Source: an uncultured delta proteobacterium
Lineage (GTDB): Bacteria > Desulfobacterota > Binatia > UBA9968
DNA length: 64,000 nucleotides
Direction of reading: 5' to 3'
Assembly: GCA_963847445.1 (NCBI GenBank)
Contig: CAWJZV010000030.1
Location: 544,001 to 608,000, forward strand
Made by a program: the position numbers and the translations under genes. Positions 8,463-55,136 of this stretch are shown in pieces (the first letter of the stretch is position 1; each line of letters begins with the position of its first letter). The notes beneath the pieces were generated by a model. It made no database searches and was not told the DNA's origin. It worked only from the letters and a program-made list of their open reading frames with translations.

Positions 8463-8570
8463 CGTTCAAATCGTTCAAGCCGTTCACAATGTTCAGAACG
8501 TCGGACCGGTCTGGCTTCACACCTCGCGAAACGATTTGAACGACTTGAACTGATTTGAACGATTTGAACG
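8463..8570. repeat. intergenic GTTCAA/TTGAAC inverted short-repeat element
   Basis: cgttcaaatcgttcaagccgttcacaatgttcag...gatttgaacgacttgaactgatttgaacgatttgaacg. Confidence 0.85.
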
Positions 8571-32475: not shown

Positions 32476-32586
32476 GCCGAACCATACAAGCCGTAAACTA
32501 GCTGCGCCCAGCGGCACCACCATGCTTGCCTGGGGAATCATAAGCCGTTTCTCCAATCGGCTCCCTGGTTCGGGAGGTTGCCACCG

Positions 32587-33639: not shown

Positions 33640-33646
33640 GGCGATT

Positions 33647-34740
33647 ATGAAATTCCAATTCACAAACCCGTTCAAAGGTTCAAAGGTTCAAACGTTCAAG
33701 GTTCTCGGACCGCTAGTCCTTTCCGTCGTTGAACTGTTGAACCCTTTGAACCTTGAACCGGCGTTTGCGCAGAGCGCCATTTCTATCAAGACAAGTCCGT
33801 GCGCATCATCGTCGGTTTCACGCCGGGCGGCTTCTATGACCGCTGGGCCAGGTTACTATCGCGCTATATGCCCAAATACATCCCCGGCAACCCCACCTTC
33901 GTCGTGCAAAACATGCCCGGCGCGAGCTCGGTGATCGCCGCCAACTATGTCTATAATTTGAGCAAGGCGGACGGCCTGACGCTGCTGGTGCCGATCAATA
34001 GTCTCTATCTCGATCAAGTGGTTGGCCGGCGTGAAGTAAAGTTCGATGTCAGAAAATTCGAATTCATCGGCACGCAAGAAAAAGCTCCGACCATGCTCTA
34101 CTTCCGTGCCGACAGTCCGTTCAAAACCCTGGGCGACATCATCAACGCCAAGGAACCGCCGAAGTGCGGCTCCACCGGCACGGCGAGCACGGGATACCTG
34201 CTCGCCAGGATCATGGACGAAGCATTCAAGGCCAAAATGACCACCGTCACCGGCTACCAGGGCGGCAGCGAGATCGACATCGCCGTCGAGCGCGGCGAGA
34301 TCGTTTGCCGCGGCATGGACATCCCGCCGCACTTTGGCCGCGAACCGTTCGACGGCTGGCATAAGCGCGGCTTCGACCGGCATATCCTACAGAGCGGCCC
34401 CAAGAAAGATCCGCGCATGGGCGACGCGCCGACACTGTTCGAACTGATGGAGCAATTCAAAACTCCCGAGGTCATGCGCGGTGTCGCACGGGTGATTCTG
34501 GCGAGCGGCGATTTTGGCCGGCCCATGGTCGCCGGCCCCGGCAATCCGCCCGAACGCATCAAAATCATGCGCGCCGCCTATGCCGGCGCGATGCGCGACC
34601 CGGGGCTCATCGAGGAAGCGAAAAAAAGCCAAATGGATATGGAACACACGCCGGGGGAAGAACTCCAGGCGCTGATGAAGGAATTGTTGAATCAACCGCG
34701 TGAAGTGATCGAAAGAGTTAAAAAAGTGTTGTCGGAATGA
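33647..34740 (+). CDS. tctC: TctC member 2 (repeat-encoded leader; frameshift ~33780)
   Basis: PFKGSKVQTFKVLGPLVLSVVELLNPLNLEPAFAQ followed by TctC motifs. Confidence 0.9.
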
Positions 34741-34752
34741 GGTTGCTATGAA

Positions 34753-35854
34753 ATGATCAAACTCAGCAAGACCCGGTTCAAACGTTCAAAAGTTCAAAGC
34801 GTTCAAGCGTAAGCTTCGGATTCAGCTGATTCTTGTTTCTGATCCCTTGAACTTTTGAACCCCTTGAACCTTGAACAGGTATTCGCGCAAGCGAATTTCT
34901 ATCAAGGTAAAACCATCCGCATCATCGTTGGCCTGACGCCGGGCGGCTTCTACGATCGCTGGGCGCGCCTGCTCGCCCGCATTCATGCCGCTTTACATAC
35001 CGGGCAATCCCAGCTTCATCGTGCAAAACATGCCGGGCGCGGGCTCGATGATCGCTATGAATCATGTCTACGGCGTCGCCAAAGCCGACGGGCTGACCCT
35101 CGGCATGCCCAATTACGGCGTCTATCTCGACCAACTGTCAGGGCGTAAAGAAGTCCGTTACGACATCACCAAGATGTACTACATCGGCTCGCCGGAGAAG
35201 AGCGACATCATTCTCTACGCGCGCGCGGACGCCCCATTCAAATCAGTCCAGGACATGAGAAAGCTCGCCGAGCCTGCTAAGTGCGGCGCCACCGGCACCG
35301 CCGGCGCGGACTACCTGATCGCGAAAGTTCTCGAAGACACCCTTGGGGTCAAGATCAATACGGTCGTCGGTTATGCCGGCGGCAGCGAGATCGACATCGC
35401 CGTAGAGAAGGGCGAAGTGCAATGCCGCGGCATGACCATCGCGCCGCACTTCGGCCGCGAGCCGTTCGATAGCTGGCATAAGAAGGGCTTCGATCAGCAT
35501 ATCGTGCAAACCTCGGAGAAGCGCGATGCCCGCGTCGCTGAGGTGCCGACGCTTTACGAAATCTTCGACAAAGAAAACACCGCCGATGAGAGCCGACGGG
35601 TCGCCGATGTGATTTTGCGCGGCGGCGACTTTGGCCGCCCCATGCTGGCTGGTCCCGGCACGCCGCTCGACCGGGTGAATATGCTGCGCGAGGCTTACGT
35701 CAAATCAATGAACAATCCCGAGCTCATCGCCGAGGCGAAGAAAGCTCGTATGGACATGGAGCCGGTCACCGGCGAACAGCTGCAAGCGCTGGCGAACAGA
35801 GTCATGAACCAACCGCCTGCCGTGCTCAAGCGCGTCAGAAAAATCCTTGAATAG
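34753..35854 (+). CDS. tctC: TctC member 3 (repeat-encoded leader; frameshifted)
   Basis: LNPLNLEQVFAQANFYQGKT, PGGFYDRWAR, PAKCG. Confidence 0.88.
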
Positions 35855-35915
35855 ATATTTTGCCAATTGCCAATCATCACCATCGCCGGTCGTCAGCGGC
35901 CGGACGGGAGGACCC

Positions 35916-36958
35916 ATGAAAGCCCTAATCCTGGTGCTCTGTCTCGTTGGCGCGTGGACTTCTCCACCTGCCAGCCCAGACACCCTATTACCAAGGCAAG
36001 CAAATCAAAGTCGTCGTTGGTTTCACCACCGGCGGTTTTTACGATCGCTGGGCGAGACTGCTGTCCCGATATATGCCCAAGCATATCCCGGGCAAGCCCG
36101 AGATGATTGTCCAGAATATGCCCGGCGCCGGCTCGGTCATCGCGGCCAATTTCGTCTATAGCGTCGCCAAAGCGGACGGACTGACCATCGGCTTCCCGAG
36201 CAATGCGCATTTACCTCGATCAATTGATCGGCCGCGGCGAAGTTAAGTACGACGTGCGCAAATTCGCTTGGATCGGCTCCCCGGTCACCGAGCCGATGAT
36301 CTTTTATGTGCGCAGCGACTCGCCGTTCAAAACGATCCAAGACATCAAGAACGCCAAGGAGCCGGCGAAATGCGGTTCCACGGGCACGGTCAGCAGCGAC
36401 TACATCCTGGCGCGACTGCTCGAAGAGACCTTGCCGCCGACCAAGATCAACACGATTTTGGGCTATCCTGGAGGCGCCGAAATCGACTTGGCGGTCGAAA
36501 AAGGTGAAGTCTCTTGCCGCGGTATGACCGCTTCTCCCTTCTTTGGCCGGGAGCCCTTTCTCAGCTGGCAGAAGAAAAACTTTGTCCGCGTGCTCTTCTT
36601 CACCGGCAGCAAACGCGACAAACGGCTTCCCGATGTGCCGACGCTGTACGAGATATTTGACCGGGAAAAGGTTCCCGAAGACCGGCGCCGCATAGCCGAG
36701 GTCATCCTTGCAGCCGAAGAGTTTGGCCGTCCGATCATCGCCGGACCCGGCACTTCAGCCGAGCAAGTCAAAATCCTGCGCCATGCTTTCGATCAATCTT
36801 TAAAGGATCCGGAGTTACTCGCGGATACAATAAAACAGAAAATGGATGTCGATCCCGAGAGCGGCGAGAACCTCGAAAAGCTCGTCGCCAAAACCATGAA
36901 CCAACCCGCCGACGTTATCGCGCGGGTTAAAAAACTTCTCGGGCAATTAGTTGATTAA
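35916..36958 (+). CDS. tctC: TctC member 4 (plain leader; frameshifted)
   Basis: MKALILVLCLVG, YYQGKQ, TGGFYDRWAR, PAKCG. Confidence 0.88.
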
Positions 36959-37012
36959 ACCAATTTCGATGGTAATTTTCGCGTTAGAAAAAAATTAGGA
37001 GGTCAGAACTAG

Positions 37013-38042
37013 ATGTTAAGATTATTAGCAATTTTGTTTTCCTTGATGATCGGCCAGGCGGCCTACGCCCAGACCCCGTTCTATCAAGGAAAAACCATTA
37101 CGATTATAGTCGGCACCAAAGCGGGCGATGCCTATGATTTATATCCGCGCATGCTCGCCGAGTTCATGCCCAAATATATTCCCGGCAATCCCAACATCAT
37201 TATTCAGAACGTTCCTGGGGCGGCGTCGCTGATCGCGGCCAATCAAGTCTACAATATCGCCAAACCGGATGGCCTGACCATCGCGGCCATCTATCCGGCG
37301 CTCTACTTCGAGCAGCTCACGAAAAAACCCCAGGTGAAGTTCGACTGGACCAAGTTCGGCTGGATCGGCAGTCCGGTGAAATCGAACCACATGCTCTACA
37401 TGCGCGCGGACGCCCCGTACAAATCCATGGACGACATCAAAAATGCCAAGACGCCGCCCAAGTGCGGCGCCAGCGGCGTGACTTCCACCGGCAACTATCT
37501 GCCGAAGCTCATGGAAGAGATCCTCGGCACGAAGTTCGAGATCGTTCTTGGGTATCAAGCCGGCCAGGACGTGGATCTTGCCGTGGAGCGCGGTGAGATC
37601 GTGTGCCGGGCGTTCACGATCACCGCATACATGGCGCGCGAGCCGTTCATTTCGTGGCGCAAGCGCGGTTTCGTCAATGAGCTGATGCAAACCGGCGCCA
37701 AACGCGATCCGCGCTTGAAAAATGCGCCGACGATCTACGAGCTCATGGATCGGTACAAAACCGACGCCGCCGGCAGAAGCCTCGGCAAGCTCATCCTGGC
37801 GGCAGGCGAGTTTGGCCGGCCGCTGGTCACTCCCCCAGGGTTCCCCGCTGCTCAGTTCAAGATCCTCCGGGAGGCTTTCGATAAAGCCGTGAGCGATCCT
37901 GCGCTGCTGGCAGCCGCGGAAAAACGTCGTCTGGAAATGGATCCGACGGATGGCGCGGAGATGGAAGCGTTGGCGAAAGAGGTCATGGCCGCAAGCCCTG
38001 AGCGTCGTAAAACGAGTGGAAGATCTTTTGGGCGGAAAATAA
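37013..38042 (+). CDS. tctC: TctC member 5 (plain leader; 3' frameshift)
   Basis: MLRLLAILFSLMIGQAAYA, GTKAGDAYDLYPR, PPKCG. Confidence 0.9.
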
Positions 38043-38130
38043 AACACAGCTCCGGGTACCCCTCAAGGTTGCATCAGAGCGGCCTTGAGGGGTATGCTCC
38101 GGCAAATTTTCGGCGGGAAGGAGAAAATTT

Positions 38131-39159
38131 ATGTTTTCAACTCTCGTTGTATTGGCCACTCTTGTCTGGAGTTCAACTGTATTCGCGCAAACTCCCTTTT
38201 ACCAAGGCAAGACCATCAGCATTGCCGCCGGCACCAAGGCCGGCGATGTCTACGATCTCTATCCGCGTTTGCTCGCCGAGTATATGCCGAAGCATATTCC
38301 TGGCAGTCCCAATATCATCGTGCAAAATATCCCGGGCGCGGCTTCATTGATCGCCGCCAATCAGGTCTATAATACTGCCAAGCCCGATGGTCTGACTCTT
38401 GCGGCGATCTATCCCGCGCTCTATTTCGACCAGCTGATCAAGCGACCGGAAGTAAAATACGATTGGGCTAAATGGCAGTGGCTCGGCAGTCCGGTAAAAT
38501 CGAACCAACTCCTCTACATGCGCGCCGACACACCGTACAAGTCGATGGATGACATCCGCAAGGCGGCCACGGCGCCGAAGTGCGGCTCCACCGGTATCGC
38601 TTCCGCGGGGTACTACATACCCAAGCTGCTGGAGGAAGTGTTGAACGGCAAGATAGACATTGTGTCGGGCTACGTGTCGGGACAGGATATCGATCTGGCG
38701 GTGGAACGCGGCGAGCTCCAGTGCCGGGCCTTCACGATTACCGCCTACTACGCCCGCGAGCCGTTTATCTCTTGGCGCAAACGGAATTTCACCAATGTGC
38801 TGGTACAAACCGGCAGCCAACGCGATGCTCGGATCAAGGAAACGCCGACCATTTACGAGCTGATGGATAAGGCCAAAACCAGTGCGGCCGGACGGACCCT
38901 GGCGAAGGTGATCCTGGCCTCGGGGGATTTGGGACGCCCCATCGTCGCCCCTCCGGGAGTGCCGGCGGATCGGATCAAGATCCTCCGCGATGCCTTCGAT
39001 AAGACGCTCGCCGACCCGGCGTTTCTTGCGGAAGCGGAAAGGCGTCGGCTCGAAATCGATCCGACCAAATGGGATGAAATGGAATCCCTGGCAAAGGAAG
39101 TCATGCTTACGCCCGCCGACGTGGTCGCGCGCATGAAAAAGTTGCTGAGTGACGGCTAA
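38131..39159 (+). CDS. tctC: TctC member 6 (plain leader)
   Basis: Intact 342-aa ORF, GTKAGDVYDLYPR, APKCG. Confidence 0.92.
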   Translation: MFSTLVVLATLVWSSTVFAQTPFYQGKTISIAAGTKAGDVYDLYPRLLAEYMPKHIPGSPNIIVQNIPGAASLIAANQVYNTAKPDGLTLAAIYPALYFDQLIKRPEVKYDWAKWQWLGSPVKSNQLLYMRADTPYKSMDDIRKAATAPKCGSTGIASAGYYIPKLLEEVLNGKIDIVSGYVSGQDIDLAVERGELQCRAFTITAYYAREPFISWRKRNFTNVLVQTGSQRDARIKETPTIYELMDKAKTSAAGRTLAKVILASGDLGRPIVAPPGVPADRIKILRDAFDKTLADPAFLAEAERRRLEIDPTKWDEMESLAKEVMLTPADVVARMKKLLSDG

Positions 39160-39188
39160 AGGCAACAACCAGGAACGAAGCCAGCTGC

Positions 39189-40253
39189 ATGATCAACCAA
39201 GAGATCAGCGGATCGGTCCTGATCGTGTCGGCTATCGGTCCTGATTGCTCCTCTCGTCTGCTATTCGACCTGCGCTTTACGCCCAAACTCCCTTTTACCA
39301 GGGCAAAACCATCAGGCTCGTCGCCGGCACCCCGGCAGGCAGCGTGTACGATCTCTATGCGCGCATGGTCGCCCAATTTCTCCCCAAGCATATTCCCGGC
39401 AATCCCAATGTCATCGTGCAAAACATGCCGGGGGTCGCCTCCATGGTTGCGGCCAATTACATTTACACCGTCGCCAAACCCGATGGCCTGACCATCGGCT
39501 CGATCCAACCGGCGCTCTATTTCGATCAACTGGTCGGGCGCAAGGAAGTCCAGTTCGACTGGCAAAAATTTACCTGGATCGGCAACACCACGGTGTCGCA
39601 CCATTTGCTCTACATGCGCAGCGACACGCCGTATAAAACCATCGAAGACATCCGCAAGGCCGCCGTGCCGCCCAAATGCGGCGCCGAAGGCACTGCGTCA
39701 TCGGCCTACTACTTCCCCAAGCTCTTGGAAGAAACCATCGGCGCGAAGTTCAACATCGTCACCGGTTACAACTCCGGCACCGATGTCGACCTGGCGGTGG
39801 AGCGCGGCGAAGTGCAGTGCCGCAGCCTTCACCATCGCCGCCTTCTTTGCCCGCGAGCCGTTTCACACCTGGCGCAAAAAAGGCTTTGTCCGGGTAATCG
39901 TGCAAACCGGCAAGAAACGCGATGGCAAAATACCCGATGTACCGACTCTGGAAGAACTCATGGACCAGCATAAGACGTCCGACTCGGCGCGCCGTCTGAG
40001 CGCGGTGATCTTGGCCGCCAATGAGATCGGCCGGCCGATCGTCGGCACTCCCGGGATTCCGGCCGATCGTGTGAAAATTCTCCGCGAAGCTTTCATGAAG
40101 ACAGTGACCGATCCAGAGCTCTTGGATGACGCCAAAAAGAAAAAACTCGACTTGGATCCGGTCTCCGGCGAGGAGCTGGAGAGTCTCGGCAAAGAGATCA
40201 TGGCGCAACCGCCGGACGTCATCGAACGCATGAAAAAACTATTGGGAAGTTAA
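39189..40253 (+). CDS. tctC: TctC member 7 (plain leader; frameshifted)
   Basis: GTPAGSVYDLYAR, PPKCG, AVERGEVQCR. Confidence 0.88.
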
Positions 40254-40289
40254 AAGCGCCAAGACAAACGGATCAAAGGAGAAGCCAAC

Positions 40290-41336
40290 ATGAAAAGACT
40301 CGCATTCGTTCTATTCGTCCTGTCTGTCCTATTCAGTCCGCACGGCTTAACCTGCATGCGCAGACGCCATTCTACCAAGGCAAGACGATCACGATCATCG
40401 TCGCGCGCCAAGGCGGGCGACATCTATGACCTTTACCCACGCCTGGTCGCGGAATTCATGCGGCAGGCATATTCCGGGAAACCCGAACATCATCATTCAA
40501 AACGTCGCCCGGCGCCGCCGGCCTGATCGGCACCAATCAGGTTTACAATATCGCCAAACCTGACGGTCTGACCCTCGGCGCGATCTATCCGGCGCTCTAT
40601 TTCGAGCAGCTCGCCAAACGGCCCGAAGCCAAATTCGACTGGACCAAGTTCATCTGGATCGGCAGCACGGTGAGCTCCAACAGTCACATGTATATGCGCG
40701 CCGATACCCCGTATAAAACCATCGAAGATGTCCGTACCGCAGCGACGCCGCCGAAATGCGGCGCAACGGGCGTAACCTCGTCGGCCTATTACATGCCGAA
40801 ACTCCTCGAAGACGCTATCGGCACCAAGTTCGAGATTGTCTCAGGTTATGTCGCCGGGTCGGATATCGACCTCGCCGTCGAGCGCGGCGAAGTTCAGTGC
40901 CGGGCCTTTACGATCAACGCCTTCTTCTCCCGCGAGCCATTTATCACCTGGCGCAAGAAAAATTTCGTGCGCGTGCTCTATCAGACCGGCAGCAAGCGCG
41001 ATGCACGGCTCAAGGACGTGCCGTTGTTCAGCTGAATTGATGGACAAGTACAAGACGCGCTGAAAGCGTCCGGCGGCTCGCCAAAGTGGTGCTGGCCGCC
41101 GATGAATTCGGCCGTCCGCATCGTCTTCCCTCCAGGCGTGCCCTGCCGACCGGGTAAAGATCATTCGCGATGCTTTCAACAAGACCATCAACGATCCCGC
41201 TCTCTTGGCGGAGGCGGAAAAGCGCCGACTCGACATCGACCCGGCAACGGGTGAAGAACTCGATTCCTTGGCCAAAGAAGTCATGACCGCGACGCCGGAC
41301 ATCGTCGAACGGGTGAAAAAACTGATCGGCATGTAA
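40290..41336 (+). CDS. tctC: TctC member 8 (plain leader; many frameshifts)
   Basis: KAGDIYDLYPR, PPKCG, AVERGEVQCRAFTI. Confidence 0.85.
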
Positions 41337-41372
41337 CGGCGCAGGTAGGCCACTGCCTGCTGCAGAAGGGCG

Positions 41373-42463
41373 ATGCAAAGGTCGCTCAAAGAGTTCAAAG
41401 GTTCAAGATTCAAGGTTGCTCAATCTCGAATCGTATCGACCGTCGCTTGATCTTTTGACACGCCTTTCTGAACCTTGAACCGGCGTCGGCGCCAGACGCC
41501 CTTCTATCAAGGCAAGACGATTCGCATCGTCATCGGCTCCTCCACCGGCGGCGGTTACGATCTGTGGGCGCGCGTTTTAGCGCGCTACTACGGCAAATAC
41601 ATCCCGGGTAATCCAACAATTCTCGTGCAGAACATGCCCGGCGCGGCGTCGATCGTCGCGACCAATTATTTGTACAACGTCGCCAAGCCCGACGGTCTGA
41701 CTCTCGGCGCGCTGCTGCCGGCGATTTACTTCGATCAGCTGGTCGGGCGCAAAGAAGTGCAGTTCGACTTCGCCAAGATTCCCTGGATCGGCTCGCCGGA
41801 ACAAAACGACGATCCTGCACTACATGCGCGCCGATTCGCCCTACAAGTCGATCGACGACATCCGCAAAGCCAAGGAGCCGCCGCGTTGCGGCAGCTCCGG
41901 CACCGGCACGACTGGATTTTATATTCCCCGCCTGCTCGACGAAGTCCTGGGCACGAAACACACTGTCGTCGCCGGCTATCCTGGCGGCTCCGAAATCGAT
42001 CTCGCCGTCGAACGCGGCGAAGTGCACTGCTGGTCGCCGCTGATTGCGACGTACTTCGGCCGCGAGCCCTACATTAGCTGGCAGAAGAAGGGCTTCGTTC
42101 GAGTGATCGTGCAGTTCGGCGCCAAGCGCGAGCCGCGCCTGGCCGACGTGCCGACGATTTACGAGTTGATGGATCAATTCAAAACTCCCGACGCCGGCAA
42201 GCGCCTGACACGCGTGATCCTGGTCGCCGCGACCCTCGGTCGGCCCATCGCAGTCACGCCGGGAATTCCGCCCGACCGCTTGAACCTGCTGCGCGATGCC
42301 TATCAAAAGACGTTGAAAGACCCCGAACTCATCGCCGAGACCAAACGCCAACGCTGGGACATCGACCCGCTCACCGGCGAAGAGATGGAAAAACTTTCAA
42401 AAGAAGTCATGAGCGCAGCCGAAGGAAGTCATCGAAAGAATGAAATGGGTCTTGGGAAACTAA
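41373..42463 (+). CDS. tctC: TctC member 9 (degenerate repeat-encoded leader; frameshifted)
   Basis: STGGGYDLWAR, PPRCG, HCWSPLIATYFGREPY. Confidence 0.88.
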
Positions 42464-42467
42464 CATT

Positions 42468-43557: not shown

Positions 43558-43561
43558 TAAA

Positions 43562-44643: not shown

Positions 44644-44694
44644 TCTCTAGGCCGCGAGTGGACGATTGCGCACAAGTATTAACTCTGCAAAATC

Positions 44695-44790
44695 CGTCAC
44701 ACCGGCGCAGGCCGGTGTCCATTTCCGGCTTCGGCAGACTAGCAAAAAGACCACAACCGCCCCTGGATTCCGGCCTGCGCCGGAATGACG
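44695..44790. repeat. REPIN-like paired palindrome
   Basis: cgtcacaccggcgcaggccggtgtcca...tggattccggcctgcgccggaatgacg. Confidence 0.85.
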
Positions 44791-44893
44791 GAACCCGCAC
44801 ACAGACAACTTGCAACCGACAGCACTAAACTGACAAGCTTCAATGCAAAGAATCTCTGGTCTAATCTGATATACGCTGAGTGTGAGGCCATTC

Positions 44894-46021
44894 ATGACCG
44901 TTGGATTTCAAGATTCGCTCAAACGTTCCCCTCGGCGGACTCAGGGCCTGAGTTTATCGAAGGCAACAGTTCAAAGGTTCAAGGTTCTCGGACTCCTGCT
45001 CTTTTCAGCCCTTGAACTTTTGAACCCCTTGAATCTTGAACGAGTATTCGCGCAGGCGAATCCCTATCAGGGTAAAACGCTGCGGGTGATCGTCGGTTCA
45101 TCGAGCGGCGGCGGTTACGATCAGTGGGCACGCCTGATGGCGCAGCATATCGGTAAACATCTACCCGGCCATCCGACGGTTATAGTTCAGAATATGGTCG
45201 GCGCCGGCGGGGTGGTTGCCGCGAATTATTTATACGGCATTGCCAAGCCCGACGGCTTGACCATCGGCGGTTTCAACCCGGCGCTCTATTTCGATCAATT
45301 GGTGGTGCGGCCGGAAGTTAAATTCGATTGGGCGAAATTCACCTGGATCGGCTCGCCGGAAAAAAATGACCTCATCCACTTCATCCGTACCGACGCACCG
45401 TTCAAAACCATCGACGACTTGCGCAATGCCAAGGAACCGCCGAAATGCGGCAATACCGGCACCGGCAATAGCGGTCTCTACGTGCCGCGCGTGCTCGAAG
45501 AAACCCTCGGCATCAAGACCACCGTCATCAGCGGCTATCCCGGTGGCGCGGAAATCGACCTCGCCGTCGAACGCAACGAAGTGGTTTGCTGGTCGCCCTT
45601 GAGCGGCACTTACTTTGGCCGCGAGCCCTATAAGCGCTGGCACAACTCCGGCTTCGTCCGCGCCGTCGTCCAGACCGGCGCCAAACGCGACGAACGACTG
45701 AAGGAAACACCGACGCTGAATGAATTGATGCAGCAATACAAAACACCCGATAGCGGCAAACGGCTCGCCAAAGTGATCCTCACCGCAGCCACTCTCGGCC
45801 GCCCCATCGCCGCTCCGCCGCGCCTGTCCGCCGAGCAGACAAAAATTCTCCGCGACGCTTATACCAAGACGATGAAGGACCCGGATCTGCTCGCCGATGC
45901 CGCCAAACGCGGCTGGGACGTCGACCCATCGACCGGTGCCGAGCTCGAATCGCTGGCGCGGGAAGTCATCGTCCAACCCAAAGAAGTTATCGAGCGCATC
46001 AAGTGGGTATTGGGGAATTGA
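44894..46021 (+). CDS. tctC: TctC member 12 (repeat-encoded leader with nested REP motif; intact)
   Basis: Uninterrupted ORF ...TVQRFKVLGLLLFSALELLNPLNLERVFAQANPYQGKT, SSGGGYDQWAR. Confidence 0.92.
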   Translation: MTVGFQDSLKRSPRRTQGLSLSKATVQRFKVLGLLLFSALELLNPLNLERVFAQANPYQGKTLRVIVGSSSGGGYDQWARLMAQHIGKHLPGHPTVIVQNMVGAGGVVAANYLYGIAKPDGLTIGGFNPALYFDQLVVRPEVKFDWAKFTWIGSPEKNDLIHFIRTDAPFKTIDDLRNAKEPPKCGNTGTGNSGLYVPRVLEETLGIKTTVISGYPGGAEIDLAVERNEVVCWSPLSGTYFGREPYKRWHNSGFVRAVVQTGAKRDERLKETPTLNELMQQYKTPDSGKRLAKVILTAATLGRPIAAPPRLSAEQTKILRDAYTKTMKDPDLLADAAKRGWDVDPSTGAELESLAREVIVQPKEVIERIKWVLGN

Positions 46022-46056
46022 AGAATGGAGTAATGGAATATTACGGTAGTGGAGTG

Positions 46057-47056
46057 ATGGAACCTGACAAGCGGCCCCGCAGACAAAAATGGGCGGGGCG
46101 TCTTACGCTTTGCGCTTTGCTCTTTGCACTTAGCCTCCCCGCCCAGGCGCAGCAGCCGGCAAAGGTGTTTAAGATTGGCTATCTCGATATCGGTAGCTCA
46201 ATGTCCAGATATCAGTCTTTGCGGCGTATCCTCCCTGATCTCGGCTACGTTGAGGGCAGGAACATCTCCTTCGAGTATCGATCGGCTGACAACAAGCTGG
46301 ACCGACTTCCCGCCTTAGCTGAAGAGCTGATCCGTCTCGATGTTGACGTACTCGTCACACGCGGCACACCTGAAGCCCTAGCTCTCAAGAACGCTACCAG
46401 GACAATTCCTATTGTTTTTTACGACGTGACTGATCCTATTGCGGCGGGACTCATTGACAGCCTGGCCCGGCCTGGTGGAAATATCACAGGGTTTACCGGG
46501 TTGGAGGCGGTGTTGGCAGGCAAACGATTGGAGTTACTGAAGGAAACCGTTGCCAAACTCTCCCGCGTCGCGGTGTTATGGAATCCGCAGGATCTAAGCT
46601 CGGCGCAACAATGGAAAGCAATGCAACTGTCGGCACGCGACCTGGGGTTACAACTGCATTCGATGGAAGTCAGCAATCCCGACAAATATGAGAGTGCGTT
46701 CAGAGAAGCAACTAAAGCGCGGAGTGGCGCTCTCGCTGTGATAGCCGGAGGGTTGGAAGACGCGAACAGAAAAAAGATCGCAGAGTTGGCAATAAAGATT
46801 CGGCTGCCAACAATATATCCTCGTCCACATTTTGTCGAAAGCGGCGGACTGATGTCCTACGGACGCGATCCTGAAGATTCTAACAAACGGGTACCAATTA
46901 TGGTCGACAAGATTCTGAAAGGAACCAAGCCTGCTGACATTCCAGTCGAACAGCCGACTAAAGTTCGAGCTGGTGATCAATTTCAAAACCGCCAAGACTC
47001 TCGGCCTGACGATTCCACCGATCGTGCTGATGCGGGCGACCAAGGTGATCAAATGA
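46057..47056 (+). CDS. ABC_sub_bind-type substrate-binding protein (3' frameshift)
   Basis: LCALLFALSLPAQAQQPAKV, SLARPGGNITG, GTKPADIPVEQPTK. Confidence 0.88.
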
Positions 47057-47147
47057 AGAAGGCAGTAGGCATGAGGCAATAGGCAACGGTAAAAAAGAAA
47101 GATAACCGCGATAGTTTGGATCAGCCCCCTTTTATAGGAGCTAAACC

Positions 47148-47720
47148 TCACCGCCAAAGATCAGGGAGCGAAATGGATAGACCAGGGAAAAGCAACGGGG
47201 TAAACGTTTCGGCGTTTTGAGTTTTAATGACGAGCTGGTATTGGTCGCCGGATAGTTCGTAGGCTTCGAGAGTCTGTTGATCGGGGTCGATGAGCCAGTA
47301 GTGAGGCACGTCGTACTTGGCGTAAAGCTGAGCTTTAGTCTGGCGGTCTGCGCGGTGCGTTGTGGGTGATAGGATCTCGATGACGAGACTCGGTGCCCCT
47401 TCGATGGCCCGCTCTGTGACAATGCCGCGGCGGTCGTCGCCAATGAAGATGAGATCGGGCTGCACGACGGTCGTGGGAGCGAGTATCACGTCGGTAGGCG
47501 CCGCGTAAATATCGCCAAGTTGGTTGGCCACAATATGGTTGGCGAGAATCCGATAAAGGTGGCCAGAAATGCTTTGATGTTTTGTGCGCGGCGCAGGCGT
47601 CACGGCAAGTTCTCCATCGAGGATCTCGTAACGGTTACGGTCGTTAGGCAATTCGCAGTAATCGTCGTAGGTCAGAACGATCTTGCCTGGCGGAATGCTT
47701 TGAGTGGAAGTAGACGACAT
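47148..47720 (-). CDS. Uma2-family (DUF820) putative endonuclease
   Basis: LTYDDY, RYEILDGEL, VQPDL, LVIEILSP, YWLIDP. Confidence 0.9.
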   Translation of the reverse strand: MSSTSTQSIPPGKIVLTYDDYCELPNDRNRYEILDGELAVTPAPRTKHQSISGHLYRILANHIVANQLGDIYAAPTDVILAPTTVVQPDLIFIGDDRRGIVTERAIEGAPSLVIEILSPTTHRADRQTKAQLYAKYDVPHYWLIDPDQQTLEAYELSGDQYQLVIKTQNAETFTPLLFPGLSISLPDLWR

Positions 47721-47834
47721 ATTAGCTTCTTACAACGACTGTGAACTTTATACATGCAGGTTCTAGCAACTCGAACGGGTTGTCAAGTGAGCCAATGACC
47801 CGGCCCTGAGTTCCATGACTCTTGGGAGAACAAC

Positions 47835-48470
47835 GTGATCAAAAAGCTATCCGGAGATCGTGAATTCCTGTCCGACAATCGAAAATCCGTCGTGCTTATC
47901 GCTATCGGTGCCGCATTCGCGTTGTGCGGCGCTCTCGCCGACGCGCAACAACGAACGAAAATCCCCTGGATCGGCTATATGGCTGACGCCGGCTCGTCGC
48001 CCAACCAAGCTTTTCTACAAGGGTTGCGCGATCTCGGCCATTTCGAGGGCAAGAACATCGCATTTGTCTTTCGCACGACGGAGGGAAAACTGAACGGCGC
48101 GCCGAACTTCTCGCCGAGTTTGTACGCTTAAAGGTTGACATCATTTTCGCCGATGGATCGGGCGCGGCGATTGCCGCCAAGAAGGCCACGAGCACGCTTC
48201 CGATTGTAATGACCGGTGCTACCGATGCAGTTGGCATGGGCCTCGTCGCCAGCCTAGCGCGGCCTGGCGGTAACATAACGGGATTGACCAACATCACCGG
48301 AGAGTTGGGTGGAAAACTTTTGGATCTAAGATTCTCAAGGGCGCGAAACCAGCTGACTTCCGGTTGAAGCACCGATGAAATTCAATCTAGAGATTAACTT
48401 ACAAACGGCGAAACAGATTGACCTGACGGTCCCTCAGACAGTGCTGTAGGGCGGATAAGAGTGACCAAGA
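47835..48470 (+). pseudogene. internally deleted ABC_sub_bind remnant
   Basis: QQRTKIPWIGY...SLARPGGNITG, then jumps to a degenerate KIL.GA..ADF.VE.P.KF.L.INL. Confidence 0.75.
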
Positions 48471-48574
48471 AGGCAGCAGACAAAAGGCAAGAGTAAGAAA
48501 TCCCCATTGCACTCAGGCTAGACTTCGCGGTACTCATAGGCGGCGTTATCCGCTTGTTAACCATGAGGTGATTC

Positions 48575-49671
48575 ATGACGCACGGGGAAAAACATCCGTT
48601 CCAAAGTTCAAAGGTTCAAGCGTTCAAGGTTCTCGGATTTCTGGTGTTTTCTGTCGTTGAACTTTTGAACCCTTGGAACCTTGAACCGGCGGCGGCGCAG
48701 ACGCCGCCGTTTCTATCAAGGCAAAACCATCACGTTCATCGTCGGCACCAAGGCTGGCGATGTTTACGATCTCTACCCGCGGCTGTTGGCGGAGTACATG
48801 CCGAAGTATATTCCGGGAAATCCTAACTTCATCATTCAAAACGTCGCCGGCGCGGCGTCGCTGATCGCGGCGAACCAGGTGTACGGCATCGCCAAGCCCG
48901 ACGGGTTGACGCTCGGCGCGATTTATCCGGCGCTTTATTTCGATCAATTGGTGAAACGGCCGGAAGTGAAATACGACTGGAGCAAGTTTGCCTGGATCGG
49001 CAGTCCGGTGGGCTCCAACCACATGATGTACATGCGCAGCGACACGCCCTTCAAGACTATTGACGATGTGCGCGGCGCCGCGACGCCGCCCAAATGCGGC
49101 ACCTCGCGGCACCACGTCGACCGGCTATTATATTCCCAAACTCTTGGAAGAAGCGGTCGGCGCCAAATTCGATATCGTCACCGGTTACCAGGCCGGCCAG
49201 GACGTAGACCTCGCCGTCGAGCGCGGCGAGGTGGTCTGCCGCTCATTCACCATCACGGCGTTTCACGCCCGCGAGCCCTACTTCAGTTGGCGCAAGCGCA
49301 AATTCGTCCACGTGCTCTATCAAACCGGCAACAAGCGCGACGGGCGGTTGAAAGATGTGCCGACCATGTACGAATTGATGGATCGATACAAAACCACCGA
49401 GCCGGTGCGCAAGCTCGCCAAGGTTATTTTAATCGCCAGCGACCTGGGCCGGCCCATCGTCGCCCCGCCGGGCGTGCCGGCCGAGCGCTTGAAAATCATC
49501 CGCGATGCCTTTAACAAGTCGGTGAGCGACCCGGCATTCTTAGCCGAGGCGGAAAAGCGCAGGTTGGAAATCGATCCATCGACTTGGGATGAGCTCGAAC
49601 CCTTGGCCAAGGAAGCCATGGCGACGCCGGCCGATGTGGTTGAACGCATGAAAAAAGTCTTGGGCATGTAA
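48575..49671 (+). CDS. tctC: TctC member 13 (repeat-encoded leader; frameshifted)
   Basis: PFQSSKVQAFKVLGFLVFSVVELLNPWNLEPAAAQ, GTKAGDVYDLYPR. Confidence 0.9.
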
Positions 49672-49697
49672 AGCCATTGAGGTTAAGGAGGTTGTTC

Positions 49698-50796
49698 ATG
49701 AAGTCTGCCGTCAAGCGGCCGTTCAAAGGTTCAAAGGTTCAAACGTTCAACGGTTCTCGGTTTTCTGGTCTTTTCCATCGTTGAACTATTGAACCCTTTG
49801 AACCTTGAACCGGCGGCGGCGCAGACGCCGCCTTTTTATCAAGGCAAGACTATTCGTATCATCGTCGGCAATCTGCCCGGCGATACCCATGACATATTTG
49901 CCCGCGCTTACTCGCGTCACATGGGCAAACATATTCCCGGCTTCCCGAATATCCTGGTGCAGAACATGCCCGGCGCCGGCGGCATGATCGCGGCCAATCA
50001 TGTCTACAACGTTGCCAAGCCGGATGGACTGACGCTCGGTTCGCCGTCGCCGGCGTTGTATTACGCCCAGCTGATCGGCAGCAGCCAAGCCAAATTCGAT
50101 TGGCCCAAATTCAATTTCATCGGCGCGCCGGAGCGCAACGGCCATTTGTTGTTCATGCGCGCGGACTCGCCCTATAAGACGCTCGACGATATCCGCAAAG
50201 CCAAGGAGCCGCCCAAATGCGCCGCCACCGGAGTCGGCACCAGCGGCCACGACGTGCCCAAGCTGTTTGACGAGATGATCGGCTTGAAGTTCAACCTGAT
50301 CACCGGTTATCCCGGCGGCGCGGAGATGGATCTAGCCATCGAACGGGGCGAAGCGATTTGCCGTGCCATCACCATCGCGGCGTTCTTCGCCCGCGAGCCC
50401 TTTCAGAGCTGGTATAAGACCGGTGTCGTGCGCGTCATGTTGCAAACCTCGCGTCAGCGCAACCCAAGAATTCCCGACGTGCCGACGTTGTTCGAGCTGA
50501 TGGAGCAATACAAAACTCCGGAGATCAAGCGCCGCCAGGTGCTGACCTATCTCGGCGTTGGCGGTTTCGGCGCCTGGCCCATCCTCGCGACGCCAGGAAT
50601 CCCGGCGGAGCGCGTGGCGATCCTCCGCGACGGCTTCGGCAAGACCATGAAAGATGCCGACTTCCTCGGCGAGGCGAAAAAAGCCGGTTGGGAAATCCGT
50701 CCGACGAACGGCGAAACCTTGCAGGCACTCGCCAAAGAAGTCATCGAACAACCGCCGGAAGTGGTCGATTGGCTGAAAAAACTACTCAACAAATAA
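49698..50796 (+). CDS. tctC: TctC member 14 (repeat-encoded leader)
   Basis: RPFKGSKVQTF...ELLNPLNLEPAAAQ, GNLPGDTHDIFAR, PPKCA. Confidence 0.9.
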
Positions 50797-50816
50797 CCTG
50801 ACAATGAGAAGTCTCC

Positions 50817-51939
50817 ATGGCACTTCGACTAACGATCGTTCAAGGGCCTTCCGGTTCAGCCGAGTTTACGAAGGCAAAAGTTCAAGGGTTCAATCGGATT
50901 CTTTTCGGATTTCTTGTTCTGACCCTTGAACTTTTGAACCCCTTGAACCTTGAACGGGCGTCTGGCCCAGACGCCCTATTATTTGGGTAAAACCATCCGC
51001 GTCATCGTCGGTTATCAGCCAGGAGACACCCATGATCTATGGGCGCGCATGTACACGCGCTATATGGGCAAGTACTTGCCCGGCAATCCGACCTTTGTGG
51101 TGCAAAACATGCCCGGTGCCGGCGGCATGATCGCCGCCAATCATGTTTTCAATCTGACCAAGCCCGACGGCCTGACGCTTGCCACCGTCGGCGGCGCGCT
51201 TTACTTCAATCAGTTGATCGGCCGTGCGGAAGTTAGATTTGACTGGAACAGGTTCACTTGGATCGGCACGCCGGAGCCCGCCGGCCTGCTGGTCTACATG
51301 CGCACCGACGCGCCGTATAAGACCTTGGACGACCTGCGCCAGACCAACGATCCGCCGAAATGTTCCGCCACCGGCTTGGGCAGCGCCGGTTACGACTTGC
51401 CGCGGCTGCTCGAAGATGTCTTAGGGCTTAAATTCAAAGTCATCAGCGGCTACCCCGGCGGCGCCGACCAGGATCTCGCCATGGAACGGGGCGAAGTCCA
51501 CTGCCGGGCTTTTACCATCGAAGCCTTTTTCGGCCGCGAACCTTATTTCACCTGGGTCAAGAAAAACTTCGTGCGCGTGCTGTTGCAAACCGAACGAAAG
51601 CGCCATCCGAAGTTGCCCGACACACCGACCATCTACGAACTGATGGATCAGTACAAGATTGACGCGGCCAAGCGGCGCATGGCCAGCGTCTATCTCAGCA
51701 GCGGCCGGTTCGGCTCCCGGCCGATCGTGTCGTCGCCGGGGTTATCGGCGGAACGCGCCAAAATGCTGCGCGACGCCTACGCGAAGACCCTCAAAGATCC
51801 CGACTTTCTCGACGAGATCGGCAAACGGAGCTGGAGCGTCGAACCGGTATACGGCGAAGAATTGCAGGCGCTCGCCAAAGAAGTCACCAGCCAGCCGCCG
51901 GAAGTGATCGAGTGGTTAAAAAAATTGTTGTCGAAATAA
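50817..51939 (+). CDS. tctC: TctC member 15 (repeat-encoded leader; frameshifted)
   Basis: cttgaacttttgaaccccttgaaccttgaac leader, GYQPGDTHDLWAR, PPKCS. Confidence 0.9.
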
Positions 51940-51962
51940 TTCGATTCGAAGCGAGGTCGGCC

Positions 51963-53061
51963 ATGGCAAATAAATCGAAACAGCGGTTCAAACGTTCAAC
52001 GGTTCAATCGTTCAACGTTCTCGGACTCCTGATTTTTTCCGTCGTTGAACTTTTGAACCCCTTGAACCTTGAACCGGCGTCGGCGCAGACGCCGCCTTTT
52101 TATCAAGGCAAAACCATTCGCATCATCGTCGGCTACCAGCCGGGCGACAATCACGACCAGTACGCGCGCACCTACGCGCGCTTCATGGGCAAGTATATTC
52201 CCGGCAATCCCACCTTCGTGATTCAGAACATGCCGGGCGCGGGTTCGATGATCGCGGCCAATCATGTCTACAACATGACCAAGCCCGATGGGCTGACGCT
52301 GGGCTCCTTCGGCGGCGCGCTGATTATGGCGCAGCTGACCGGACGCAAAGAAGCGCAGTTCGACTGGCCGAAGTATGGTTGGATCGGTACCCCCTACCGC
52401 GCCGGCCACCTGCTCTTTATGCGTACCGACGCGCCCACCAAGACGGTCGACCAATTGCGCCAGGGGAACGACCCGCCGCGCTGTTCGGCCACCGGCGTCG
52501 GCAGCACCGGCTATGACATTCCCCGGCTGCTCGAGGATGCCCTCGGCATGAAATTCAAGATCATCAGCGGTTATCCTGGCGGCGCCGACCAGGACCTGGC
52601 AATGGAACGCAACGAAGTGAACTGCCGCGCCATCACCATCGACGGCTTCTTCGCCCGCGAGCCGTTCATCTCGTGGGTCAAGAAAGGCTTCGTGCACGTG
52701 CTGCTGCACACGGAAAAACAGCGCCACGCCAAGATCCCCAACGTGCCAACCGTCTTCGAGCTGATGGATCAGTACAAGGTCGCCGAGGCCAAACGCCGCC
52801 TGGTCAACACCTATTTGGGACTCTGGGGCTTCGGCTCCATGCCCATCGTCACCACGCCCGGAGTTGCCCGCCGAGCGGGTCAAGCTGCTGCGCGAAGCGT
52901 ATTTGAAAACCTTTACCGATCCGGAATTTCAGGAAGACATGGTGAAAAGAGGCTGGGAACCGCGCCCGGTGAACGGCGACGAACTCGCCGCTCTCGCCAA
53001 AGACGTCATCAATCAGCCGCCGGAAATCAGCGAAGCAATCAAACGGATACTCAGTCAATGA
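51963..53061 (+). CDS. tctC: TctC member 16 (repeat-encoded leader in frame; 3' frameshift)
   Basis: MANKSKQRFKRSTVQSFNVLGLLIFSVVELLNPLNLEPASAQTPPFYQG, GYQPGDNHDQYAR. Confidence 0.9.
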
Positions 53062-53085
53062 TCGCCTGAAAAAATCATCGACAGG

Positions 53086-54895: not shown

Positions 54896-55136
54896 ATTTA
54901 CCCGCCACGAAACACGCGAATTCGTCTATAGTCTTGCGCCAGGCGTCTAGGGTTTATCCGAACCCGGACGCCGGCGATAAGTCCCGCCGCCATGCCGGCA
55001 AGAGGCGATAATGTTCCAGCGTGCAACTCAACACCCTAAACACTGAACCCGCAAACCGCATTCAGCAGTTGACAGCCAGTCACATTTCAGTGGGATAAGC
55101 AAAGCATCTGACAGATCCAAGGGAGGACAGCAAATT

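What the first reader, a model, noticed from the sequence alone, without database searches (positions are those of the whole stretch)
33670..52074. Signal peptides of 10 tctC paralogues are encoded by an intergenic palindromic repeat element
Seen: a ~90-120 bp element ((GTTCAA-n)x3-4, loop, (TTGAAC-n)x4) lies just after the start codon of members 2, 3, 9, 10, 11, 12, 13, 14, 15 and 16 (33670-33758, 34776-34876, 41393-41480, 42483-42571, 43573-43661, ~44919-45041, 48598-48686, 49721-49810, 50838-50955, 51986-52074). In members 12 and 16 it reads in frame without a break. The left arm encodes a basic n-region (FKGSKVQRFK), the loop a hydrophobic core (VLGLLIFSVV) and the right arm ELLNPLNLE directly before an A/V-x-A-Q cleavage-like site. 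The same arms occur as non-coding DNA at 1037-1137, 7021-7074, 8463-8570, 10581-10610 and 28179-28203. Known precedent: Rickettsia palindromic elements insert into coding genes, but I do not know of a repeat that supplies a whole export signal. Inference: a repeat family has been exapted as a portable secretion leader that would also fold the 5' mRNA into a hairpin.
Basis: partly seen in the sequence, partly recalled or inferred. Interest (0 to 1): 0.9.

Follow-up and report, generated by a model that had tools for sequence, protein, structure and literature searches.

The report
Palindromic repeat encoding TctC signal peptides
In a soil bacterium of the Binatia group, a small palindromic DNA repeat that normally lies between genes has become the coding sequence for the export leader of about ten neighbouring nutrient-binding proteins, so the same DNA is constrained both as a repeat and as a peptide.

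Summary
At all ten places an 88-123 nt element lies between a Shine-Dalgarno/ATG and the conserved A-x-A|Q site of a TctC (Bug) binding-protein gene. It consists of GTTCAA units, a T-rich loop and TTGAAC units.

Paralogues without the element, and about 73 of 80 homologues from other genomes, have an ordinary signal peptide at that place. The same leader is in frame in 60 independent database proteins, nearly all TctC. It also occurs in 76 of 140 array genes taken from 20 related genomes plus the window.

The evidence favours translation:
- Loops are 29 or 32 nt.
- Loops are hydrophobic, with T at second codon positions.
- The right arm has an 8-9-7 spacing that removes an otherwise unavoidable in-frame TGA.

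The hexamers are also fixed at synonymous sites (TTG, TCA, GTT at 96-100% against 4-20% background), so a DNA or RNA constraint persists.

The repeat family is restricted to one genus and is mostly intergenic. The leader is exchanged among TctC paralogues but was not found on other protein families. Most frame breaks in the window look like assembly indel errors.

An in-silico precedent exists (Yersinia RU-2, Delihas 2007). Export itself is inferred, not shown.

The parts
32578..53069 (+). Tandem array of 16 TctC/Bug substrate-binding-protein genes. An ABC_sub_bind gene and a Uma2 gene are inserted at 46003-47720.
   Evidence: Pfam PF03401 for members 12 and 16; for the inserted genes.
33670..33758 (+). 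Element in member 2. ATG at 33647, 23 nt before the first hexamer. The frame is lost just after A-x-A-Q: two extra bases relative to the G003 orthologue.
   Evidence: (-37.3 kcal/mol, z -6.15).
34776..34876 (+). Element in member 3. The loop is 40 nt and holds a TAA in the leader frame, so at least two indels are needed.
   Evidence: (-30.5, z -4.6).
41393..41480 (+). Degraded element in member 9. Its gene body is also split (41475-42077 and 41824-42471).
   Evidence: (-21.9, z -1.9).
42483..42571 (+). Element in member 10. It is in frame with the mature domain, but the ATG upstream is out of frame.
   Evidence: (97% identical to P0059, which is intact).
43573..43661 (+). Element in member 11. 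Two single extra bases lie after the element, relative to the G004 orthologue.
44919..45041 (+). Element in member 12, with a second small palindrome nested in the left arm. It is in frame from ATG 44894 to the stop at 46021.
48598..48686 (+). Element in member 13. One extra base lies after A-x-A-Q, and the gene body is also split.
49721..49810 (+). Element in member 14. One extra base at the end of the left arm puts the ATG out of frame. P0008 (98.6% identical over residues 12-365) is intact.
   Evidence: -37.6, z -6.5.
50838..50955 (+). Element in member 15, with a type-B loop and a nested insert. One extra G lies after the element.
51986..52074 (+). Element in member 16. It is in frame from ATG 51963. 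The gene goes out of frame near its 3' end.
   Evidence: -32.7, z -5.8.
37013..39159 (+). Paralogues 5 and 6, which have ordinary short signal peptides (MLRLLAILFSLMIGQAAYA|QTPFYQGK and MFSTLVVLATLVWSSTVFA|QTPFYQGK). They serve as the internal reference for the cleavage site.
1057..1136 (.). Intergenic copy of the repeat family (3+4 hexamers).
7022..7074 (.). Intergenic arm copies.
8464..8569 (.). Copy of the repeat family (2+4 hexamers, 57-nt loop).
53396..55011 (+). tctA membrane component, split into two ORFs (Pfam profile positions 2-274 and 277-406).

Best explanation
The genome is probably Candidatus Binatia, judging by the names of near-identical database proteins and related MAG records. 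It carries a genus-restricted family of palindromic repeats. Each arm is an array of GTTCAA / TTGAAC hexamers spaced 7-9 nt, and the loop usually holds TCGGA/TCCGA.

Most copies are intergenic. One subfamily has been taken into the reading frame of TctC (Bug) periplasmic binding-protein genes. It has a left arm spaced 8-8-8, a T-rich loop of 29 or 32 nt, and a right arm spaced 8-9-7.

Translation starts at an SD+ATG 5-39 nt upstream of the element. The parts then read as follows:
- The left arm gives a lysine-rich n-region.
- The loop gives the hydrophobic core.
- The right arm gives ELLNPLNLE.
- The ancestral A-x-A|Q signal-peptidase motif follows directly.

The element thus replaces the n- and h-regions of an ordinary Sec signal peptide. 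This positional replacement is shown; that the leader exports the protein is inferred.

The hexamers stay fixed at synonymous sites, so the DNA or RNA is under its own constraint or is continually homogenised. What exerts that constraint is unknown: an mRNA or DNA hairpin, or a factor that recognises the hexamers.

The leader cassette is exchanged among paralogues by recombination. This is inferred from incongruence with the tree of the mature domains.

Most frame breaks in this window are probably indel errors of the assembly.
For: Position
- Canonical paralogues in the window end their signal peptides with A-x-A|Q(T)PFYQGK, exactly where the element-bearing genes resume.
- 80 loci were fetched by the mature domain only. 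By eye, about 73 have an ordinary short signal peptide, 3 carry the element, 2 are ambiguous and 2 are unreadable.

Translation
- Searching with the leader alone found 60 proteins among 64 candidates, in independent assemblies, all in frame.
- Of 76 element-bearing genes in the arrays, 58 have an in-frame start codon upstream with an open frame; 49 of those have an SD-like motif, and of these 49 starts 45 are ATG.
- The rate is 23 of 24 in many-contig assemblies against 35 of 52 in few-contig ones.
- Loops are 29 nt (41 genes) or 32 nt (17 genes). 72 of 76 are stop-free, with mean Kyte-Doolittle +2.14.
- In 59 intergenic copies loops are 4-86 nt with no mod-3 preference, and 0 of 263 stop-free frames reach +1.5.
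- In the loops, second codon positions are T in 74% of cells against 28% and 26% at first and third positions.
- The right-arm spacing 8-9-7 occurs in 54 of 76 coding copies and 0 of 59 intergenic copies. An 8-8-8 or 8-8-7 array puts TGA in every frame; this follows from arithmetic on the sequence.

Nucleotide constraint
- TTG 50/52 and 52/52 (background 20% of Leu codons); TCA 51/51 (4%); GTT 50/51 (12%); CAA 51/51 (51%); GAA 51/52 (54%).
- Third positions that fall in spacers vary.
- Arms are 90-95% identical between copies whose mature domains are 70% identical.

Hairpin
- Predicted energies are -22 to -46 kcal/mol. In 8 of 10 copies no shuffle of 200 folded as well.

Family and distribution
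- This genome has 74 paired elements and 274 solo arms.
- The pattern occurs in 21 of 24 other genomes of the genus and 0 of 16 genomes of two other families of the order.

Exchange
- The state element/none needs at least 13 changes on the mature-domain tree.
- The loop type A/B needs at least 10 changes. Orthologues at patristic distance 0.03-0.08 carry different types.

Assembly errors
- Contigs from other public runs lack the extra base at 39824 (three contigs from two runs, X1 and X6) and at 40268 (one contig each from three runs, X1, X5 and X6).
- tctA is split.
- Near-identical database proteins are intact.
Against: - No signal-peptide predictor, proteome or reporter data were available, so export is inferred from position and conservation.
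- The leader is atypical. In 24 leaders that a rough parser could read, the median length is 40 aa, the uncharged core is only about 10 residues, and about 14 residues with two Glu lie between core and A-x-A. Nine canonical leaders gave 23, 18 and 9.
- A hairpin of about -30 kcal/mol starting 11 or 23 nt after the start codon should hinder initiation.
- None of the eight spacer pairings exceeded its shuffles, and of seven loop-base pairings one (31-59) did so weakly (56 of 2000 shuffles reached it, uncorrected). The hairpin is therefore not shown to be the selected feature.
- In G021 and G008, orthologues at the same array positions have ordinary or only vestigial leaders. The hexamer array is therefore dispensable for the protein.
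- Genomes of one genus are not independent samples.
- The split into 'few-contig' and 'many-contig' assemblies is my proxy for long-read versus short-read; it is not on record.
- Member 9, and perhaps member 3, look truly degraded.
Confidence: 0.72

Rival explanations
1. The element is untranslated. It would be a REP-like hairpin in the intercistronic or 5' untranslated region. The proteins would start at the in-frame TTG of the right arm or later and would lack a signal peptide.
For: - TTG AAC hexamers 2 and 3 of the right arm are in-frame TTG codons, and the ORF listing starts several ORFs there.
- Many intergenic copies of the family lie directly upstream of start codons of other genes, for example C15:224210, C17:200102, C22:16619 and C27:43005.
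- Eight of ten copies in the window are not in frame with an upstream ATG.
Against: - 23 of 24 genes in many-contig assemblies have an open frame from an upstream start codon.
- Loops show coding periodicity and hydrophobicity that intergenic copies lack.
- Loop lengths differ by 3 nt.
- The 8-9-7 spacing removes the in-frame TGA.
- No purine-rich SD precedes the TTG; the sequence there is the pyrimidine-rich loop (read from the sequence).
- By established knowledge of the family, a TctC binding protein needs export.
Confidence: 0.07
2. The element is translated but does not act as a cleaved Sec signal. It would be an uncleaved membrane tether, or a tolerated N-terminal extension with weak or no export function.
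For: - The uncharged core is short (about 10 residues), and a long acidic stretch (ELLNPLNLE) lies before A-x-A.
- The peptide follows what the hexamers dictate, not an optimised signal.
Against: - The leader is kept in frame, with hydrophobic loops, across 20 genomes and at least 10 orthologue groups.
- The A-x-A|Q motif is retained directly after the element, as in canonical paralogues.
- The mature domains are conserved.
Confidence: 0.13
3. Reverse origin: the intergenic repeat family arose from the TctC leader sequence, not the other way round.
For: - In some genes only the right arm is present, next to an ordinary hydrophobic core (L112 at 9169 and 10301; L126 at 6523). This could be a pre-palindrome stage.
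- The repeat family and the leader are restricted to the same genus.
Against: - 0 of 59 intergenic copies carry the coding subfamily's 8-9-7 spacing or a hydrophobic loop.
- Intergenic copies are more numerous and more diverse (periods 7-9, loops 4-86 nt) and have symmetric arms.
- Homologues outside the genus have ordinary signal peptides.
Confidence: 0.08
4. The array in this genome is a graveyard of pseudogenes: the frame breaks are real.
For: - Eight of ten leaders, and several gene bodies, are out of frame.
- Member 9 is degraded well beyond single-base indels.
Against: - Contigs of other runs lack the extra bases at 39824 and 40268.
- The tctA gene next to the array is also split.
- Breaks are concentrated in few-contig assemblies (35 of 52 intact against 23 of 24).
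- Proteins 97-99% identical are intact in other assemblies.
Confidence: 0.15

Closest known systems
[quoted passage not shown]
   Same: An intergenic palindromic repeat with an open frame and a hydrophobic cluster is fused in frame to the 5' end of a gene. It contributes to a predicted signal peptide.
   Different: - That case is one hypothetical 144-aa protein, and the repeat supplies only part of the signal.
- Here the element supplies the n- and h-regions of at least 10 paralogues of a known periplasmic binding-protein family.
- It is conserved across about 20 species, shows constraint at synonymous sites, and is exchanged among paralogues.
- No sequence relationship between the two repeats was tested.
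Rickettsia palindromic elements (Ogata et al. 2000; recalled, and seen only as a reference)
   Same: A palindromic repeat occurs both between genes and in frame inside protein-coding genes.
   Different: - RPEs insert into many unrelated genes, at sites thought to be tolerated, without a defined function (recalled).
- Here the copies stand at one homologous position of one family and take over a defined functional module.
REP/BIME elements with RAYT transposases of enterobacteria and pseudomonads (recalled)
   Same: Short, imperfect palindromes that are high-copy and mostly intergenic. They often lie between cistrons, where their hairpins can stabilise upstream mRNA.
   Different: - The arms here are arrays of a 6-nt unit, not a single stem.
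- None of the 4 Y1-transposase loci in this genome is flanked by the hexamers.
PARCELs, palindromic amphipathic repeat coding elements (Roske et al. 2010, PMC2996958; passages read)
   Same: A palindromic repeat that is translated, so dyad symmetry and coding coexist.
   Different: PARCELs are tandem intragenic repeats that build surface-protein domains. They are not an N-terminal export leader and are not shared with intergenic DNA.
Ordinary Sec signal peptides of TctC/Bug proteins
   Same: Same position, the same A-x-A|Q(T)PFYQGK junction, a basic start and a hydrophobic core.
   Different: About twice as long, with a shorter core and an acidic ten-residue linker. The residues are dictated by hexamer DNA.

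Membership tests
TctC / Bug substrate-binding protein (Pfam PF03401) | Match to the family profile above the curated cut-off | tested here: met
   Members 12 and 16 score 47.1 and 40.7 bits (cut-off 27). 58 of the 60 leader-bearing database proteins carry PF03401.
TctC / Bug substrate-binding protein (Pfam PF03401) | Genomic association with the TctA membrane component | tested here: met
   TctA (PF01970) lies at 53396-55011 directly after the array, split into two ORFs. TctB was not looked for.
Sec-type (signal peptidase I) signal peptide | Positively charged n-region | tested here: met
   Median net charge +4 in the 24 leaders that could be parsed, out of 76. The lysines come from the hexamer plus spacer (TTCAAR, TCAAAR).
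Sec-type (signal peptidase I) signal peptide | Hydrophobic h-region of about 7-15 residues | tested here: met
   Uncharged stretch of median 10 residues; best 9-residue window has Kyte-Doolittle 2.7. 72 of 76 loops are stop-free with mean KD 2.14.
Sec-type (signal peptidase I) signal peptide | Short c-region with small residues at -3 and -1 | tested here: inconclusive
   A-x-A is present, as in canonical paralogues. However, about 14 residues, two of them Glu, separate the core from it, against 9 in canonical leaders (rough parser).
Sec-type (signal peptidase I) signal peptide | Prediction by a trained tool, or demonstrated export and cleavage | not testable with these tools
REP/BIME-RAYT system | High-copy, short, imperfect palindromes that are mainly intergenic | tested here: met
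   74 paired elements and 274 solo arms. 59 paired copies are not at TctC genes and are mostly followed by short ORFs only.
REP/BIME-RAYT system | A Y1 (IS200/IS605-like) transposase gene flanked by the repeats | tested here: not met
   4 PF01797 matches in the genome; none has hexamer arrays within about 1.5 kb.
RPE-like coding palindromic element | The same repeat occurs both intergenic and in frame within ORFs | tested here: met
RPE-like coding palindromic element | Insertions in many unrelated genes | tested here: not met
   Only TctC genes carry it in this genome. The same holds among database proteins of 202-644 aa; other lengths were not searched.
MITE | Terminal inverted repeats with target-site duplication and a cognate transposase | not tested
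   Target-site duplications were not sought; the arm repeats make them hard to call.
Any Rfam RNA family | Match at the gathering threshold | tested here: not met
   0 matches in window 32000-53500.

The most novel reading that the evidence does not exclude
The leader is a dual-coded recombination cassette. A genus-wide mechanism acting on DNA or RNA keeps the hexamer arrays intact; it could be a hexamer-binding factor, a hairpin function, or copy-correction among repeats. That mechanism, and not the needs of the peptide, dictates the leader's amino acids.

The cassette, including the cleavage region, hops between TctC paralogues. It may also have driven their tandem expansion. The hairpin it forms would serve both as a 3' stabiliser of the upstream cistron and as a brake on translation of the downstream one.

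Where the repeat family is rare or not found (G021, G008), the leaders relax into ordinary signal peptides.
Probability: 0.3. Interest if true: 0.8.

Novelty: new variant of a known kind. Interest (0 to 1): 0.64.

Why it matters
This would be a clear, family-wide case in bacteria in which a non-coding repeat became a functional protein module. It is conserved over many species and is still constrained as a repeat.

The case offers several things to study:
- A natural system for asking how much sequence freedom a signal peptide has.
- A test of how overlapping DNA/RNA and peptide constraints are reconciled. The 8-9-7 spacing that removes an in-frame stop codon is one example.
- A test of whether repeats promote exchange of leaders and expansion of transporter gene families.

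It also has a practical side. Gene callers and signal-peptide predictors may mis-start or mis-class these genes in Binatia MAGs.

Tried and rejected
- **Reads.** Contigs of four public runs were laid on 33600-52200 to check the leader indels. Inside the elements the rows are dominated by cross-mapping of many copies (depths of 100-290), so they say nothing about individual leaders. Only the body indels at 39824 and 40268 were usable. The RNA run (X20) gave mostly 90-95% matches and no listed piece over a leader, so it provides no evidence on transcription of the leader.
- **RAYT link.** Not found.
- **Rfam.** Nothing found.
- **Covariation.** None of the eight spacer pairings exceeded its shuffles. 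Among seven loop-base pairings one (31-59) weakly did: 56 of 2000 shuffles reached it, uncorrected. The hexamers themselves are too invariant to test.
- **Ungapped identity.** The figure of 0.39 for the mature domain was invalid because indels shift the register. It was replaced by the aligned figure of 0.70.
- **Signal-peptide parser.** It read only 24 of 76 element leaders and 9 canonical ones, so its numbers are rough.
- **Literature.** Five searches found no report of this element or of Binatia TctC leaders. Only listings and abstracts were seen, except for the passages read.
- **Not run.** The leader search against proteins shorter than 202 aa or longer than 644 aa was not run. 'Only TctC' therefore holds for 202-644 aa and for this genome.

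Full report
**1. Observation.** The window is G000:C30:544001-608000 of a 7.19-Mb, 48-contig, 57% G+C genome. GTTCAANNGTTCAA (up to 1 mismatch) matches 37 times against 0.21 expected, and the matches cluster at the ten stated places. Each place shows the same layout. There are 2-4 GTTCAA units, then a loop, then 2-4 TTGAAC units, then GC-rich codons for A-x-A-Q and the mature start (T)PFYQGKT. In the frame of the mature protein the element reads FK.SKVQ.FK / VLGLLIFSVV (or RILFGFLVLTL) / ELLNPLNLE. Members 12 and 16 are unbroken from ATG into the mature domain. Both match Pfam TctC, PF03401. tctA follows the array.

**2. What normally stands there.** Paralogues 1, 5, 6 and 7 of the same array lack the element. 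They have ordinary 20-30-residue signal peptides that end A-x-A|Q(T)PFYQGK. I fetched 80 loci from species-representative genomes using an alignment of mature domains only, so the choice could not favour any leader. By eye, about 73 have an ordinary short signal peptide at this place, 3 carry the element (L009, L026, L059), 2 are ambiguous and 2 could not be read. The element therefore replaces the n- and h-regions of an ancestral signal peptide. The cleavage motif is ancestral and lies outside the element.

**3. The leader elsewhere.** A search with residues 1-50 of member 16 returned 60 proteins among 64 candidates of 202-644 aa. 58 carry PF03401, and several are named as Candidatus Binatia Bug-family proteins. 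All have the leader in frame. Proteins 97-99% identical to members 10, 14 and 16 are intact. I cut syntenic arrays out of 20 genomes of the genus and added the window, which gave 140 TctC genes. Of these, 76 carry at least 2+2 hexamers just upstream of the mature start. The paralogue order is conserved, and the same positions (2, 3, 9-16) carry the element in most genomes.

**4. Evidence that it is translated.**
- Of the 76 genes, 58 have an in-frame start codon upstream of the left arm with an open frame to the mature domain. 49 of those have an SD-like motif, and of these 49 starts 45 are ATG. The start lies mostly 11 or 23 nt before the first hexamer.
- Loops are 29 nt (41 genes) or 32 nt (17 genes). 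They are very variable as peptides, but 72 of 76 are stop-free with mean Kyte-Doolittle +2.14.
- In the 30 copies of exact geometry, second codon positions of the loop are T in 74% of cells, against 28% and 26% at first and third positions.
- The 59 paired copies of this genome that are not at TctC genes have loops of 4-86 nt with no mod-3 preference. None of their 263 stop-free frames reaches +1.5.
- The arms of coding copies are asymmetric: the left arm is 8-8-8 in 51 of 76 and the right arm is 8-9-7 in 54 of 76. 0 of 59 intergenic copies have 8-9-7; their commonest spacings are 8-8-7, 9-9 and 9-9-9.
- TTGAAC contains TGA. Three consecutive units at period 8 visit all three phases, so an 8-8-8 or 8-8-7 right arm has a stop in every frame. 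The 8-9-7 spacing visits only two phases and leaves exactly one frame open, which is the frame used. This follows directly from the sequence and looks like an adaptation of the repeat to being read.

**5. Evidence that the DNA or RNA is still constrained.** 52 leaders read ELLNPLN[LVI]E and 51 read F[KN].S[KRTN]VQ.F. In them, codon positions inside hexamers are almost invariant. The background is the mature domains of 104 of the same genes.

| Codon | In the leader | Background share |
|---|---|---|
| TTG (Leu) | 50/52 and 52/52 | 20% |
| TCA (Ser) | 51/51 | 4% |
| GTT (Val) | 50/51 | 12% |
| CAA (Gln) | 51/51 | 51% |
| GAA (Glu) | 51/52 | 54% |

Third positions that fall in spacers vary freely (CTN, CCY, AAR). 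The amino-acid variation of the n-region (K/N, S/G/R, K/T, any residue) is just what free spacers between fixed hexamers produce. Between copies whose mature domains are 70% identical, the arms are 90-95% identical and the loops 65%. Even the Gly of VLGLL comes from the family's loop motif TCGGA.

The RNA is predicted to fold at -22 to -46 kcal/mol. In 8 of 10 copies none of 200 shuffles folds as well. However, spacers do not covary and the hexamers are too invariant to test. I therefore cannot say whether the hairpin, a hexamer-binding factor, or homogenisation among copies is responsible.

**6. The repeat family.** This genome has 74 paired elements and 274 solo arms. Only the nine paired copies in this array, the degraded member-9 copy and one further copy at C8:95420 lie in a gene, and all of these genes are TctC. 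Many other copies lie just upstream of start codons. That suggests a route into a reading frame: a 5'-UTR copy plus a new upstream ATG (inference). Coding and intergenic copies share TCGGA/TCCGA in the loop: 57 of 76 and 42 of 59, against shuffle means of 2.6 and 4.2. The pattern occurs in 21 of 24 other genomes of the genus and in 0 of 16 genomes of two other families of the order. The reversed-pattern control gave 0 everywhere (that tally and the one include the unpublished genome G005). Four Y1-transposase loci are not flanked by the repeat, and Rfam has no match.

**7. Exchange of the leader.** I built a FastTree of 104 mature domains; 36 of the 140 genes were left out because of stops or truncation.
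- Orthologue groups are well supported, but the state 'element' versus 'none' needs at least 13 changes. The starred branches force 11-16.
- Loop type A (29 nt) versus B (32 nt) needs at least 10 changes among the 43 typed rows. Orthologues at patristic distance 0.03-0.08 carry different types and different cleavage-region variants, such as AAAQTPPF against VFAQANF.
- In G021, three of the four orthologues of members 13-16 have ordinary signal peptides, although their mature domains nest among element-bearing ones. G008 has only vestiges such as LLNPW.LE.
- Those two genomes also have 0 and 4 pattern matches genome-wide. This correlation is partly circular, because leaders count as matches.

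I read all this as recombination or gene conversion of a leader cassette among paralogues. So the leader is 'portable' within the family but not beyond it.

**8. The frame breaks.**
- Relative to the best orthologues, members 2, 11, 13 and 15 have one or two extra single bases just after the element. Members 10 and 14 have one before or within the left arm. Member 3 has several, and member 9 is degraded.
- Gene bodies are broken too, and tctA is split.
- Contigs from other studies lack the extra base at 39824 and 40268.
- Intact leaders are 23 of 24 in many-contig assemblies against 35 of 52 in few-contig ones. The contig number is my proxy for sequencing technology.

Most breaks are therefore probably consensus indel errors. 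Member 9 may be a real pseudogene.

**9. Function.** Shown: the position, the conservation of the frame, the coding signature of the loop and the nucleotide constraint of the arms. Inferred: that the leader exports the protein. Its architecture is unusual. It is about 40 residues long, has an n-region of net charge +4 and a core of about 10 residues, and then about 14 residues with two Glu before A-x-A (rough, 24 of 76 parsed). No predictor was available. Further inferences come from what is known of REP elements (recalled). The hairpin may protect the upstream cistron's 3' end. Because it starts 11-23 nt after the ATG, it may also damp initiation of the downstream one.

**10. Comparison and novelty.** In-frame palindromic repeats are known: Rickettsia RPEs (recalled) and PARCELs (PMC2996958, passages read). 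[quoted passage not shown] Five literature searches found nothing on this element or on Binatia TctC leaders. The following appear to be new:
- the scale (at least 10 orthologue groups in about 20 species);
- the replacement of a known functional module in a known family;
- the constraint at synonymous sites;
- the stop-avoiding spacing;
- the exchange of the cassette among paralogues.

Verdict: a new variant of a known kind. The sequence-level claims are well supported, and export remains untested.

Noticed in passing
window 44925-44968 and 50844-50879; also P0038, P0062, L059, L127: A second small palindrome (core CTCAGGGCCTGAG, followed by a ..TATCGAAGGC motif) is nested in the left arm of members 12 and 15. 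It is translated in frame as ..LRRAQGLSLSKA... Its 3' motif occurs 4+4 times in the genome. This is a repeat within a repeat within a leader.
   Followed up: partly
P0003, P0006, P0047: Some database homologues carry two leader elements in tandem, or a duplicated left arm, all in frame. The cassette can therefore duplicate inside the leader.
   Followed up: no
G000 C24:59521, 66954, 68153, 69363 and C46:474147: Copies with 9-nt period arms have loops that hold another G+C-rich palindrome (CCTCCCCCG.GAC.CGGGGGAGGA). It looks like a further nested repeat family.
   Followed up: no
window 53396-55011: tctA is split into two overlapping ORFs (Pfam profile positions 2-274 and 277-406). Together with the breaks at 39824, 40268 and the 3' end of member 16, this points to frequent single-base indels in this assembly.
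   Followed up: partly
window 46003-47720: The TctC array is interrupted by an ABC_sub_bind (PF04392) gene on the + strand and a Uma2-family (PF05685) gene on the - strand.
   Followed up: partly
G000 C15:224210, C17:200102, C22:16619, C27:43005, C30:307822: Several intergenic copies end within a few codons of the start codon of unrelated genes. At C22:16619 the copy lies just before an ordinary signal peptide. The family seems to favour 5' untranslated regions.
   Followed up: no
table 5: Contigs from other samples join one leader element to another several kb away, for example 34747 to 43573 and 43663 to 51993. This is either assembly through the repeat or real rearrangement between paralogues at the elements.
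   Followed up: no
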